Source: Hyphomonas sp. (GTDB taxonomy: Bacteria; Pseudomonadota; Alphaproteobacteria; Caulobacterales; Hyphomonadaceae). From it: a stretch of DNA of 64,000 nt. The position numbers and the translations under genes were made by a program. The notes below the pieces were generated by a model. The model was not told where the DNA came from. It was given only the letters and a program-made list of their open reading frames with translations, and ran no database searches. This document shows positions 3,744 through 31,446 of the stretch, piece after piece. How positions within the stretch are numbered: the stretch's first letter is position 1; each line of letters begins with the position of its first letter. The stretch spans positions 16,852 through 80,851 of the forward strand of contig JAWKUR010000015.1 of the NCBI GenBank assembly GCA_041398445.1, read 5' to 3'.

Positions 3744-3925
3744 CTCCTGCTCCTGAACGCAGCCCCTTCACGTTCGCCCCGAAATACACTATGTGCACCG
3801 CACAAGACGCTCCGGGCATGGAAAGCGCCCGGTCCGTGGAACGCACACTGGAGTGCGGGAAGCGGAAAGTTGGCGGCCATGTGGGCCGCACCGGGTAACA
3901 ATTTCCATCTCAGGAACGACAGACA

Positions 3926-5488
3926 TTGACTGAAAAAACATTCGCCGACCTCGGGCTTAGCCCCGACATTCTCAAGGCACTGGACGAAGCAGGCTACAAG
4001 ACGCCAACCCCGATCCAGTCCGAAGCCATCCCCAACGTGATCGCAGGCAATGACGTGACCGGTATTGCCCAGACCGGCACCGGCAAGACGGCAGCCTTCG
4101 TGCTGCCCATGATCCACCGCCTGGCCCGTGGCCGCGCCCGTGCCCGTATGCCGCGGTGCCTGATTCTCTGCCCGACGCGCGAACTCGCTGCGCAGGTTGC
4201 CGAGAACTTCGAGAAATATGGCAAGTACCTGAAGCTTACCATGGCGCTGCTGATCGGTGGCGTCAGTTTCAAGGAGCAGGAAGTCCTGCTGCAGCGCGGC
4301 GTCGACGTGCTGATCGCAACGCCGGGCCGCCTGCTCGACCAGTTCGACCGCGGCAAGCTGCTGCTGATGGGCGTGGAATACTTCATCATCGACGAAGCCG
4401 ACCGCATGCTCGACATGGGCTTCATCCCGGACATCGAGAAGATCTGCTCCAAGCTGCCGGCCAAGCGCCAGACGCTGCTGTTCTCCGCCACCTTCCCGAC
4501 GGACATTCAGCGCCTCGCGAAAACCTTCCAGCGCGATCCCGTGAAGATCGAAGTGGCCCGTCCGACCGATACGGCCTCCACGATCACGCAGTATGTCGTG
4601 CACCTGCCGACCAACGATGCCAAAGCGAAGCGCACGGCGCTGCGCCGCGTGATCGAGTCCTGCGACGTGAAGAACGGCATCGTCTTCTGTAACCGCAAGG
4701 TCGAAGTGGACATCGTTGCCGCCTCGCTCAGCAAGCATGGCCATGATGCCGCGCCGATCCATGGCGATCTTCCGCAATCGGTGCGTTCCGAAACGCTGCA
4801 GAAGTTCCGCGATGGCGACCTGAAGCTTCTGGTCGCTTCTGACGTCGCAGCCCGTGGCCTCGACATTCCGGATGTCGGTCACGTCTTCAACTATGCCCCG
4901 CCGCCGAAGGATGAAGACTACATCCACCGCATCGGCCGTACCGGCCGGGCCGGGCGCACGGGTGAAAGCTACACGCTGGTTTCCCCGGCCGATGAGAAAT
5001 CCTGGGGCTTCGTCCTCAAGATGATCAAGAAAGACGTCGAAGAGTTCATGCCGGAAGGCCTGCTCGAAGAAATCGCCAACCTGCCGCCGGAAGAAAAATC
5101 CGGACGCGGACGGCGTGGCAGCCGGGACCGCGACAGCAGCCGCAGCCGTGGTGGCCGTGGCGAACGCTCGCGCGGCAGCCGTAACCGCAGCCGCGAGGAC
5201 GCACCGGAAACCGAGAACGATGTTGCCGTCGTCGAGGTGCAGGAAGACATCCGCGAGGAAGCCCCGGCCAAGGCAGAGAAACCTGAAAAGGCGGAGAAGC
5301 CTGAGAAGGCCGAAAAGCCGAAGCGCGAGCGCGCTGAACGTCCGGAACGGGCTGAGCGCAAGACCACCGAGCGCAAGGAAAAGCCGAAGCGGGACTACAA
5401 GCGCAAGGATGACGACCTGATCCTTGAGCCGGCCCCGGACAATGTGAAAGGCTTCGGCAACGACATACCAGCCTTCCTGAAACGCTAA
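3926..5488 (+). CDS. DEAD-box RNA helicase (TTG start)
   Basis: Q-motif, AQTGTGKT, PTRELA, DEAD, SAT, HRIGRTGR; charged low-complexity C-terminal tail. Confidence 0.96.
   Translation: MTEKTFADLGLSPDILKALDEAGYKTPTPIQSEAIPNVIAGNDVTGIAQTGTGKTAAFVLPMIHRLARGRARARMPRCLILCPTRELAAQVAENFEKYGKYLKLTMALLIGGVSFKEQEVLLQRGVDVLIATPGRLLDQFDRGKLLLMGVEYFIIDEADRMLDMGFIPDIEKICSKLPAKRQTLLFSATFPTDIQRLAKTFQRDPVKIEVARPTDTASTITQYVVHLPTNDAKAKRTALRRVIESCDVKNGIVFCNRKVEVDIVAASLSKHGHDAAPIHGDLPQSVRSETLQKFRDGDLKLLVASDVAARGLDIPDVGHVFNYAPPPKDEDYIHRIGRTGRAGRTGESYTLVSPADEKSWGFVLKMIKKDVEEFMPEGLLEEIANLPPEEKSGRGRRGSRDRDSSRSRGGRGERSRGSRNRSREDAPETENDVAVVEVQEDIREEAPAKAEKPEKAEKPEKAEKPKRERAERPERAERKTTERKEKPKRDYKRKDDDLILEPAPDNVKGFGNDIPAFLKR
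5270..5320 (+). repeat. Degenerate 18-bp coding tandem repeat, approximately (KAEKPE)x3, in helicase tail
   Basis: aaggcagagaaacctgaa aaggcggagaagcctgag aaggccgaaaagccg. Confidence 0.8.
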
Positions 5489-29789: not shown

Positions 29790-29880
29790 CGCCCTCACCG
29801 CGTGGCGGTGAGGCGTTCGAGGCTCAAATCGATCCACTGGATCGATTTGCCGTACGTCACACGGACGCCTCTCACCCCTT
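29790..29880 (-). repeat. REP-like multi-hairpin palindromic element abutting the rtcB stop
   Basis: caaatcgatcc-act-ggatcgatttg, cctcaccgc-gtg-gcggtgagg, ccgt-N7-acgg. Confidence 0.55.
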
Positions 29881-31083
29881 CACGCACACAACCTGTTTTA
29901 GCGTGTGGACAATCTCCACAAGGTCTGACTGCGCAGCCATGACGGCGTCGATGTCCTTGTAGGCCATCGGCGTTTCATCGATGACGCCAGCATCCTTGCG
30001 GCATTCCACACCCGCCGTTGCGGCGAGATGGTCCTCCACCGTGAAGGTGCGCTTGGCTTCACTGCGGGACATCGTCCGCCCTGCCCCGTGCGAGCACGAG
30101 CAGAAAGAGTCCGCATGCCCCTTTCCACGCACGATGAAGGATTTCGCCCCCATCGAACCCGGAATGATGCCCAGCTCACCCACCTTGGCGCTGACGGCAC
30201 CCTTACGGGTAACCCAGACATTGGCACCGAAGTGGTGTTCCCGCTCGACGTAGTTGTGGTGGCAATTCACCGCCATCTTGTCGAGCGCGAAAGCCGGAAA
30301 ATGATCACGCAAAGCAATCAGTACCCGGTCCATCATCACTTCGCGGTTGAGGCGCGCATAGTCCTGCGCCCAGCCGACAGCCATCACATAGTCGTCGAAC
30401 AATTCCTCCCCTTCCATAAAGAAGGCGAGATCCTTGTCCGGCACATGATAGCCGAGAACCCGCTTCTCCAAAGCCTCACGGGCTTCCTGGATGAAGTAGG
30501 TCCCGAGGATGTTGCCCGTTCCGCGCGAACCGGAATGGAGCATCACCCAGACGCGATCCTCCTCATCGAGACAAAGCTCAATGAAGTGGTTCCCGCCCCC
30601 AAGCGTGCCGAGCTGTTTGGCAAACGCTGTGCGCTGGATACGCTTGTGCTTGCCGGTAATCAGTTCCAGCCGCTCATTGAGGCCTGAGGCACGCAAGGCC
30701 GTGGTGGCGCGCGTGGGGGCTTCCTTGTGGTTGCCACCGCGCCCGTTTCCCACCGGCACCTTCCGTTCAATCTCGTCGCGGACGGCGGCCAGGCTGTCCG
30801 GCAACTGGGGCGCCGTCAGGCTGGTGCGTACCGCCATCATGCCGCAACCGATGTCGACACCGACAGCAGCCGGAATGATCGCCCCCTTGGTCGGGATCAC
30901 CGATCCAACAGTCGCGCCGCGCCCGAAATGCACGTCCGGCATCACGGCGAGGTGGGAATGCACGAACGGCAGGCCGGCAACATTCTCCAGCTGCTCGCGC
31001 GCGGCATCTTCCACCGGCACACCTTTCACCCAGGCCTTGATGCGGCCCCCGGCAAAGGTTTCGAACGCTTCAAATTCACTCAT
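29872..31083 (-). CDS. rtcB: RNA-splicing/repair ligase RtcB
   Basis: MPDVH, VGVDIGCG, GTLGGGNHF, LHSGSRG, HHNY, RKGA, PGSMG, SHGAGR, DETPMAYK. Confidence 0.96.
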   Translation of the reverse strand: MSEFEAFETFAGGRIKAWVKGVPVEDAAREQLENVAGLPFVHSHLAVMPDVHFGRGATVGSVIPTKGAIIPAAVGVDIGCGMMAVRTSLTAPQLPDSLAAVRDEIERKVPVGNGRGGNHKEAPTRATTALRASGLNERLELITGKHKRIQRTAFAKQLGTLGGGNHFIELCLDEEDRVWVMLHSGSRGTGNILGTYFIQEAREALEKRVLGYHVPDKDLAFFMEGEELFDDYVMAVGWAQDYARLNREVMMDRVLIALRDHFPAFALDKMAVNCHHNYVEREHHFGANVWVTRKGAVSAKVGELGIIPGSMGAKSFIVRGKGHADSFCSCSHGAGRTMSRSEAKRTFTVEDHLAATAGVECRKDAGVIDETPMAYKDIDAVMAAQSDLVEIVHTLKQVVCVKG

Positions 31084-31155
31084 CGTCTTTTGGTCTGGGG
31101 ATACAGACCCCTCCTTATCTAGCCCGCCGCGCGGCCCCTTCGGATTTCAGACAAG

Positions 31156-31186
31156 AAAAAACCCTCCGGGCGTTACGCGCGGAGGG
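31156..31186 (-). terminator. Intrinsic terminator (attenuator) inside the rtcB leader
   Basis: Minus strand CCCTCCG-cgcgtaacgcc-CGGAGGG-TTTTTT, located between promoter and rtcB start. Confidence 0.8.
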
Positions 31187-31228
31187 CGGCAAAAGACCCT
31201 TCCAGGTCCCGGGACTGACTGTCAGCCC

Positions 31229-31315
31229 CTATCCAGCAACCTCCATGCAGAATCGCTCGCTGCCCTCGTACAGGGCTGCGTCGTTCCTTGGTTGATTGAG
31301 ATACCGATTGGTCAT
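31229..31315 (-). CDS. Putative 28-aa rtcB leader peptide MTNRYLNQPRNDAALYEGSERFCMEVAG
   Basis: GGAG RBS upstream of ATG 31315; TAG at 31231-31229; lies between promoter and terminator. Confidence 0.6.
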   Translation of the reverse strand: MTNRYLNQPRNDAALYEGSERFCMEVAG

Positions 31316-31344
31316 CGGGGGTCTCCGTTGCTGAATGGAGGCGC

Positions 31345-31373
31345 CGTATGATGGAACGCGCCGCATGCGTCAA
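31345..31373 (-). promoter_or_regulatory. Sigma70-type promoter of rtcB
   Basis: TTGACG-N17-CATACG immediately after the rplQ terminator. Confidence 0.65.
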
Positions 31374-31383
31374 CCGAAAAAAT

Positions 31384-31416
31384 AAAGAACCCCGGAGCGA
31401 AACTCCGGGGTTCTTT
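31384..31416 (-). terminator. Alpha-operon (rplQ) terminator
   Basis: aaagaaccccggag-cgaaa-ctccggggttcttt with A-rich flank. Confidence 0.9.
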
Positions 31417-31446
31417 GATTTCCTTGCGGAAAAATCTCTGCTCGGA

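What the first reader, a model, noticed from the sequence alone, without database searches (positions are those of the whole stretch)
31141..31373. Leader-peptide transcriptional attenuator controlling rtcB: candidate ribosome-stalling or tRNA-damage sensor
Seen on the minus strand, in order: promoter TTGACG-N17-CATACG (31373-31345); GGAG RBS; 28-codon uORF MTNRYLNQPRNDAALYEGSERFCMEVAG (31315-31229); intrinsic terminator (31186-31156); rtcB. Four segments can pair in mutually exclusive ways. Segment 1 GCCCU (31276-31272) pairs with segment 2 AGGGC. Segment 2 GAGGGCAGC (31267-31259) pairs 8 of 9 with segment 3 GCCGCCCUC (31190-31182). Segment 3 pairs with segment 4 to form the terminator. The three Arg codons are CGG, AGG and CGA, whereas the adjacent ribosomal genes mostly use CGC/CGT. 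CCA-AGG (codons 9-10, AGG at 31288-31286) sits where a stalled ribosome would mask segment 1 and free segment 2. Established: this is trp-type attenuator geometry, and E. coli/Salmonella rtcBA is instead controlled by RtcR and sigma54. Inference: the RNA ligase is induced when translation stalls (cleaved or depleted tRNA, damaged ribosomes, antibiotics). I do not recognise this RtcR-independent mechanism as described.
Basis: partly seen in the sequence, partly recalled or inferred. Interest (0 to 1): 0.88.

Follow-up and report, generated by a model that had tools for sequence, protein, structure and literature searches.

The report
Ribosome-sensing attenuator replaces RtcR at rtcB
In front of this bacterium's RNA-repair ligase gene rtcB lies a short reading frame followed by a terminator-shaped hairpin, a layout kept in 122 of 124 related copies that lack the usual protein activator RtcR, and it likely turns the gene on when ribosomes stall, as already known for a related Pseudomonas gene.

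Summary
The layout is conserved across five Caulobacterales families: 122 of 124 rtcB copies without a neighbouring rtcR carry it, against 0 of 13 copies with rtcR. Four helices covary, and the leader occurs only at rtcB. So an RtcR-independent, ribosome-coupled attenuator is well supported, though untested at the bench.

The conserved antiterminator candidate is a GGAGG run in the last uORF codons (strong partner in 89 of 100 leaders, versus 14 of 100 for segment 2). It is read in all three frames and is masked by a ribosome reaching the stop. It shows no covariation. Rare Arg codons are largely limited to this genus, so a general translation-stall sensor is more likely than an AGG sensor.

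The principle is not new: Pseudomonas PA5471.1 attenuates the RtcB-like armZ, and whiB7 works similarly. This scan noted similar rtcB leaders in at least eight other genomes. New here: a distinct leader on stand-alone rtcB, alternating with RtcR.

The parts
31384..31416 (-). Terminator-like hairpin ending the upstream rpoA-rplQ operon; separates it from the rtcB unit
   Evidence: 15-bp stem with T-run
31345..31373 (-). Predicted sigma70-type promoter lacking T at -7, followed by a GC-rich stretch
   Evidence: Sequence; TTGA(C/T) at this place in 53 of 54 family leaders; missing -7T is common in alphaproteobacteria (PMC7703639, abstract start in listing)
31327..31336 (-). 5' strand of helix P1, which closes around the whole uORF when it is not being initiated
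   Evidence: Pairs with 31240-31231; 5 of 10 pairs with two-sided changes, 91% paired in 35 sequences; found unprompted by RNAalifold
31323..31326 (-). Shine-Dalgarno-like GGAG of the uORF
   Evidence: Sequence; conserved in alignment A1
31229..31315 (-). Leader uORF, 28 codons; length conserved, peptide sequence not
   Evidence: 25-35 codons in 99 of 100 non-redundant leaders, stop 25-48 nt before the terminator; pN/pS 0.61-0.74 within three genera
31259..31279 (-).
   Evidence: All 7 pairs tested show two-sided changes, 78% paired; z below -1 in 76 of 100 leaders; 2:3 pairing not conserved
31240..31248 (-). Predicted main antiterminator (GCAUGGAGG, codons 23-26), complementary to the terminator 5' arm
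   Evidence: Best partner of the arm lies here in 89 of 100 leaders; 84% paired but no covariation; read in three frames 62/24/9
31231..31240 (-). 3' strand of helix P1 (last uORF codons and stop)
31193..31230 (-). Two spacer hairpins that bring the antiterminator close to the terminator arm
   Evidence: First one 100% paired, 4 of 5 pairs with two-sided changes; second variable
31156..31186 (-). Predicted intrinsic terminator (5' arm 31186-31177, 3' arm 31171-31162, U6)
   Evidence: 95% paired, one pair with a two-sided change in 9 of 35 sequences
31122..31133 (-). Post-terminator segment D, a near-perfect complement of the terminator 5' arm; can pair only after read-through; role unexplained
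   Evidence: 95% paired, 4 of 12 pairs with two-sided changes, 0-1 of 500 shuffles as high; also seen in Caulobacter/Brevundimonas leaders
31092..31115 (-). rtcB Shine-Dalgarno AGGAGG (31115-31110) and a hairpin between it and the ATG
   Evidence: Sequence; hairpin kept with different letters in relatives
29872..31083 (-). rtcB, 403 aa, stand-alone RtcB-family RNA ligase gene
   Evidence: PF01139 E 2.5e-128 over the full profile; below the cut-off of the prfH-linked family TIGR03073 (138.8 vs 271.8); only copy in the genome, no prfH over cut-off

Best explanation
The leader holds a conserved short reading frame, alternative helices and a terminator-shaped hairpin, and it likely works as a ribosome-coupled transcription attenuator that would let rtcB be transcribed when translation of the frame stalls for any reason. 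Predicted steps: (1) a constitutive promoter starts the leader. (2) A ribosome that runs to the stop codon covers the GGAGG segment in the last codons, so the terminator forms. (3) In this genus an untranslated leader also terminates, because helix P1 ties the 5' end to the uORF end. (4) A ribosome held at the start or in the first two thirds of the frame, or a queue of ribosomes, opens P1 but leaves GGAGG free to capture the terminator 5' arm before the 3' arm is made, so polymerase reads into rtcB. In this strain the 3' arm of the internal hairpin is a predicted second antiterminator for stalls at codons 10-12. The leader does the job that RtcR and sigma54 do at other rtcB copies. Shown: anatomy, conservation, covariation of four helices, alternation with rtcR. 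Inferred: transcription start, translation, termination, induction and the stimulus.
For: Leader at 82 of 83 Hyphomonadaceae and 40 of 41 other Caulobacterales rtcB copies without adjacent rtcR, and at 0 of 9 and 0 of 4 copies with rtcR. The pattern is found only beside rtcB: 79 of 250 genomes, none among the 137 without rtcB. P1, internal hairpin, spacer hairpin and terminator: 90.7% paired, 17 of 31 pairs with two-sided changes, 0 of 500 shuffles as high, slid controls 32-50%. The last-codon zone pairs with the arm at -12 kcal/mol or better in 89 of 100 leaders, the segment-2 zone in 14, a control zone in 0. GGAGG is kept as nucleotides in three reading frames and lies 2-18 nt before the stop. 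Folding with a masked footprint gives mean arm capture of 0.57-0.69 for a ribosome 17-27 codons before the stop and 0.1 or less within 7 codons of it (the drop follows from the masking). Nine Vitreimonas/Terricaulis-type loci carry extra tRNA genes on the same strand beside this rtcB. Two RNA-run contigs from one study span the terminator. Precedent: PA5471.1-armZ (PMC12057347, PMC13041342) and whiB7 (10.1101/2023.06.02.543512).
Against: No experiment: no 3' end, ribosome footprint or induction data were available. The GGAGG:arm helix shows no covariation, and leaders pair no better with their own arm than with other clades' arms (-16.49 vs -16.51). It is weak, and the complete terminator wins in every equilibrium fold (P=1.0), so the switch must be kinetic. 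In this strain single ribosomes at codons 15 or 20, or at 5+15, are predicted not to antiterminate. The no-ribosome default differs between clades (arm capture 0.13, 0.29, 0.86, 0.36). Relatives are not independent samples.
Confidence: 0.72

Rival explanations
1. One reading: stalling at CCA-AGG (codons 9-10), caused by loss of a rare tRNA-Arg, frees segment 2, which is the antiterminator.
For: In this strain 2:3 forms with P 0.5-1.0 when codons 10-12 are masked. AGG is rare in the genome (2.4 per 1000) yet sits at codon 10 in 12 of 21 same-genus leaders, and the segment-2 zone is a strong partner in 9 of 21. My alternative reason for keeping AGG, pairing with the antiterminator flank, was not supported. 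In PA5471.1 particular codons do matter (PMC13041342 abstract).
Against: 2:3 pairing equals shuffles in 35 sequences. Outside this genus the segment-2 zone is strong in 5 of 79 leaders and a rare Arg codon at 8-12 occurs in 4 of 79. Shared ancestry can explain AGG within the genus. None of the tRNA genes found beside rtcB reads AGG or AGA.
Confidence: 0.1
2. GGAGG is kept mainly as an internal Shine-Dalgarno-like anchor that makes the ribosome dwell at the end of the uORF, and control comes from transcription-translation coupling or P1 opening rather than from a GGAGG:arm helix.
For: GGAGG matches the anti-SD (recalled), lies 8 nt before the stop in 41 of the 91 leaders scored, and does not coevolve with the arm.
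Against: Spacing to the stop ranges from 2 to 18 nt. The terminator arm is invariantly the complement CCUCC, and several clades extend the pairing on the other side (examples). The two roles are not exclusive.
Confidence: 0.1
3. The leader is a fixed dampener, or a protein- or ligand-binding RNA switch; the uORF is incidental or acts in trans.
For: RNA contigs span the terminator in one study; segment D is strongly conserved without an obvious role; weak purifying selection on the peptide.
Against: SD, start codon and length are kept while the peptide diverges; the arm's partner is always inside the last codons; no Rfam family reaches its cut-off.
Confidence: 0.08

Closest known systems
PA5471.1 leader peptide - armZ (PA5471) attenuator, Pseudomonas aeruginosa (PMC12057347 passages; PMC13041342 abstract, section 8 and discussion)
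   Same: Constitutive promoter, leader ORF and terminator in front of an RtcB-family gene; full translation terminates, stalling (antibiotics, loss of tRNA CCA repair) reads through.
   Different: ArmZ is an RtcB-like anti-repressor of MexZ in an operon with PA5470 (a prfH homologue, recalled). Here rtcB stands alone, scores below the prfH-linked family cut-off and has no prfH. PA5471.1 is 13 codons (recalled) against 25-35 here. Sequence homology of the two leaders was not tested.
whiB7/wblC uORF attenuator of Actinomycetota (10.1101/2023.06.02.543512, passages)
   Same: Long, sequence-diverse uORF sensing many kinds of translation stress through antiterminator versus intrinsic terminator.
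   Different: Controls a transcription factor and is Ala-enriched. These uORFs are not (Ala 11.0% vs 12.0% in the genome). Different phylum.
RtcR/sigma54 RNA-repair operon of E. coli and Salmonella (PMC7790460, summary and one passage)
   Same: Controls an RtcB ligase in response to damage to the translation apparatus; some loci of both kinds carry extra tRNA genes.
   Different: Protein activator sensing tRNA fragments. Here no rtcR was found, and leader and rtcR never sit at the same rtcB copy (0 of 13).
trp/his-type amino-acid attenuators (established knowledge)
   Same: Leader ORF and competing helices; predicted termination when untranslated, in this genus.
   Different: No run of control codons; the antiterminator lies inside the last codons.

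Membership tests
Ribosome-dependent transcription attenuators (PA5471.1/whiB7 type) | Conserved uORF with ribosome-binding site in the leader | tested here: met
   25-35 codons in 99 of 100 leaders
Ribosome-dependent transcription attenuators (PA5471.1/whiB7 type) | Intrinsic terminator between uORF and gene | tested here: met
   Sequence form conserved, 95% paired; actual termination not measured
Ribosome-dependent transcription attenuators (PA5471.1/whiB7 type) | Antiterminator exclusive with the terminator and overlapped by the ribosome's path | tested here: inconclusive
   Position conserved in 89 of 100; no covariation
Ribosome-dependent transcription attenuators (PA5471.1/whiB7 type) | Read-through depends on uORF translation and rises on stalling | not testable with these tools
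   Only contigs, no raw reads or drug conditions
PA5471.1-armZ-PA5470 system itself | Controlled gene is the prfH-linked RtcB type in an operon with prfH | tested here: not met
   TIGR03073 138.8 vs cut-off 271.8; no prfH over cut-off; next gene has its own promoter and leader
Codon-specific (trp/his-type) attenuators | Conserved control codons at the stall position | tested here: not met
   73 of 100 uORFs lack rare Arg codons in the core; no conserved residue at codons 8-14
RtcR/sigma54 rtc operon | Adjacent rtcR and a -24/-12 promoter | tested here: not met
   No PF06956 hit in the genome; sigma54-like box near 1 of 100 leaders
Curated RNA families (Rfam 15) | Match above gathering score | tested here: not met

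The most novel reading that the evidence does not exclude
Bacteria control rtcB in two interchangeable ways: RtcR sensing cut tRNA, or a peptide-blind ribosome gauge built of RNA. In Caulobacterales the RNA gauge is the main mode. Its GGAGG run would do double duty, anchoring a healthy terminating ribosome through the anti-SD and acting as antiterminator when no ribosome arrives. Segment D would latch the read-through transcript. In one clade the same switch would release spare tRNAs with the ligase, closing a feedback loop in which repair restores termination.
Probability: 0.25. Interest if true: 0.72.

Novelty: new variant of a known kind. Interest (0 to 1): 0.52.

Why it matters
The signal and substrates of bacterial RtcB are still debated, and the studied control route (RtcR) is missing from most rtcB loci in this order (13 of 137 copies examined have it). 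A 260-nt leader that can be fused to a reporter would show directly which insults (antibiotics, tRNA cleavage, rRNA damage) call for RtcB, and would extend the Pseudomonas armZ principle to a stand-alone ligase gene. The mechanism class itself is known, which caps the surprise.

Tried and rejected
Rare-Arg sensing as a general cue: rejected. My idea that CCA-AGG is kept because it pairs with the antiterminator flank: 57% paired, equal to shuffles. Coevolution of antiterminator and arm: none. Stop counts in the other two frames (116 and 64; open in 21 and 50 of 100) are weak evidence, because frame 0 was selected as open. Other copies of the leader in the genome: none. RNA runs: four runs of one study, contigs only; none covers 31340-31426 and coverage elsewhere is patchy, which proves nothing about starts, ends or levels. 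The primary PA5471.1 paper (Morita 2009) was not held, so its mutant data come second-hand. PMC8297930 and PMC12218461 do not mention armZ and rtcB respectively; their supplements were not read. Rows dropped before the 100-leader counts: 15 parsed loci with doubtful or partial uORF calls (L021, L030, L031, L054, L171, L205, L230-L237, L257), 42 near-duplicates above 85% identity, and leaders the parser missed (L122, L134, L137, L139, L140, L145, L149, L152, L165, L166, L169, L189, L190), which were counted by eye only in the presence tally.

Full report
Observation. The minus strand reads rpoA, rplQ, a strong hairpin terminator (31416-31384), the leader, then rtcB (31083-29872). Named records with 87-91% identical RtcB are Hyphomonas, so the window is likely from that genus. 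The gene is the only rtcB in the 88%-complete genome; neither RtcR nor a prfH above cut-off was found. No Rfam family reaches its cut-off.

Distribution. RtcB was found in 113 of 250 family genomes and 65 of 201 order genomes. I read the upstream DNA of 92 family copies and 45 of 46 copies from the other families. Strong RtcR hits occur in 9 of 250 family genomes (a tenth hit is weak) and 4 further order genomes, each within 4 kb of a divergent rtcB of 58-64% identity. None of these 13 copies has the leader. Of the other 124 copies, 122 have the terminator with a G-rich partner upstream (exceptions L154 and L254; L171 has lost the 5' part; the uORF of L235 was not parsed). G226 and G395 carry one copy of each kind. 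A pattern spanning GGAGG to the terminator hits 79 of 250 family genomes, once each, always beside rtcB, and none of the 137 without rtcB. The upstream neighbour varies, so the leader travels with rtcB, not with rplQ. In a class-wide sample only 25 of 401 genomes had rtcB; a parser-grade leader was seen at L202-L206 and L221. Kin are not independent, so these are descriptive counts.

What is conserved. After dropping 15 doubtful parses and near-duplicates, 100 leaders remained. The uORF is 25-35 codons in 99 and stops 25-48 nt before the terminator. The peptide is not conserved across clades; within genera pN/pS is 0.61-0.74. A segment after the U-run also covaries with the terminator 5' arm; it can pair only after read-through and I cannot explain it.

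Which segment antiterminates. The best upstream partner of the terminator 5' arm starts 14-31 nt before the uORF end in 89 of 100 leaders. Its GGAGG core is read in three frames (62/24/9), so it is kept as RNA. Against this: it is invariant and shows no covariation, leaders pair no better with their own arm than with others, and energies are barely above shuffles. In this strain, however, it is nearly as stable as the GGAGG helix (-13.0 vs -13.8) and forms when codons 10-12 are masked, so it may be a genus-level addition.

The cue. AGG is at codon 10 in 12 of 21 same-genus leaders and in none of the other 79; 73 of 100 uORFs have no AGG, AGA or CGA in the core. A general stall sensor fits better than an Arg-specific one, though a local role for CCA-AGG is not excluded (one search failed to give it a structural reason). 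Nine Vitreimonas/Terricaulis-type loci (L022-L025, L028, L198-L201), L030 and L181 have tRNA genes on the same strand next to rtcB, up to six, of mixed identity (63 leader-bearing loci scanned). This fits a response to general tRNA or translation damage but is circumstantial.

Model. Folding the transcript up to the emergence of the 5' arm, with a 26-nt footprint forced single-stranded, gives for this strain: no capture without a ribosome (P1 0.99); GGAGG capture of 0.73-0.95 with a ribosome at codon 1 or 6, or a pair at 8 and 18; segment-2 capture at codons 10-12; little or none at 15, 5+15, 20, 24 or 28. Over 100 leaders mean capture is 0.57-0.69 for early positions and 0.1 or less near the stop. 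Once the full terminator is present it always wins, so the switch would be kinetic. These are equilibrium models with an assumed start site and footprint. Two RNA-run contigs from one wastewater study span the terminator, a weak hint that read-through RNA exists.

Prior knowledge. A review lists ArmZ as RtcB-like and PA5471.1 as a leader attenuating it on ribosome stalling (PMC12057347, passages). Loss of the tRNA CCA-adding enzyme raises armZ through stalling on PA5471.1 (PMC13041342, abstract, section 8 and discussion). whiB7 uses a sequence-diverse uORF the same way (10.1101/2023.06.02.543512, passages). RtcR senses tRNA fragments (PMC7790460, summary and one passage). Six full-text searches combining rtcB with attenuation, leader peptide, attenuator, uORF, Caulobacter or Term-seq showed no paper describing this leader; subscription papers and supplements of genome-wide riboregulator or RNA-motif surveys were not seen and could list it. 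After I had formed my reading, the scan's index showed eight unchecked notes of similar leaders in other genomes, most of them at rtcB, none with look-alike sequence.

Verdict. A real, conserved cis-regulatory leader; most likely a general ribosome-stall attenuator standing in for RtcR. It works like PA5471.1 and whiB7 leaders but is not a member of the armZ-prfH system. New variant of a known kind; interest 0.52.

Noticed in passing
window 29632-29543 (-), leader of the gene at 29467-28406: The next gene (353 aa, PcfJ-like by Atlas features only, family on 37% of one cluster's members; no Pfam hit) has its own TTGACG promoter and a second uORF of 29 codons with hairpins but no U-run. Its 3' part is conserved in the 16 same-genus loci looked at. 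Possibly a second translation-sensing leader.
   Followed up: partly
window 31133-31122 (-): Segment D after the terminator covaries with the terminator 5' arm across families; it could latch the read-through RNA, shield the rtcB ribosome-binding site from the anti-SD-like arm, or form a processing stem.
   Followed up: partly
window 31109-31092 (-): A hairpin with variable sequence sits between or over the rtcB Shine-Dalgarno and the ATG in most family members; it may set spacing or add translational control.
   Followed up: no
L025:2395-2469 and 3837-4397; L024, L199, L200, L201: tRNA gene arrays (Tyr, Asp, Gln, Glu, Pro, Met, Lys, Arg, Gly, Ala) on the same strand directly around attenuator-led rtcB in the Vitreimonas/Terricaulis-type clade; one tRNA-Gly lies between terminator and rtcB.
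   Followed up: partly
L024, L028, L198, L200, L201, L228 between terminator and rtcB: An unknown ORF of about 75 aa is inserted behind the attenuator and in front of rtcB.
   Followed up: no
L192:1008-1457 (-), L194:2742-3212 (+): A 150-157 aa basic protein without Pfam match follows rtcB closely in another family of the order.
   Followed up: partly
L154 (G048), L254 (G390), L171/L021: Two rtcB copies have neither rtcR nor leader, and one has lost the 5' part of the leader: natural variants predicted to be unregulated.
   Followed up: no
L156, L160-L163, L252: rtcR-linked rtcB copies are preceded by arrays of tRNA or tRNA-like repeats (ARAGORN called 1 in L156, 2 in L163, 0 in L252).
   Followed up: partly
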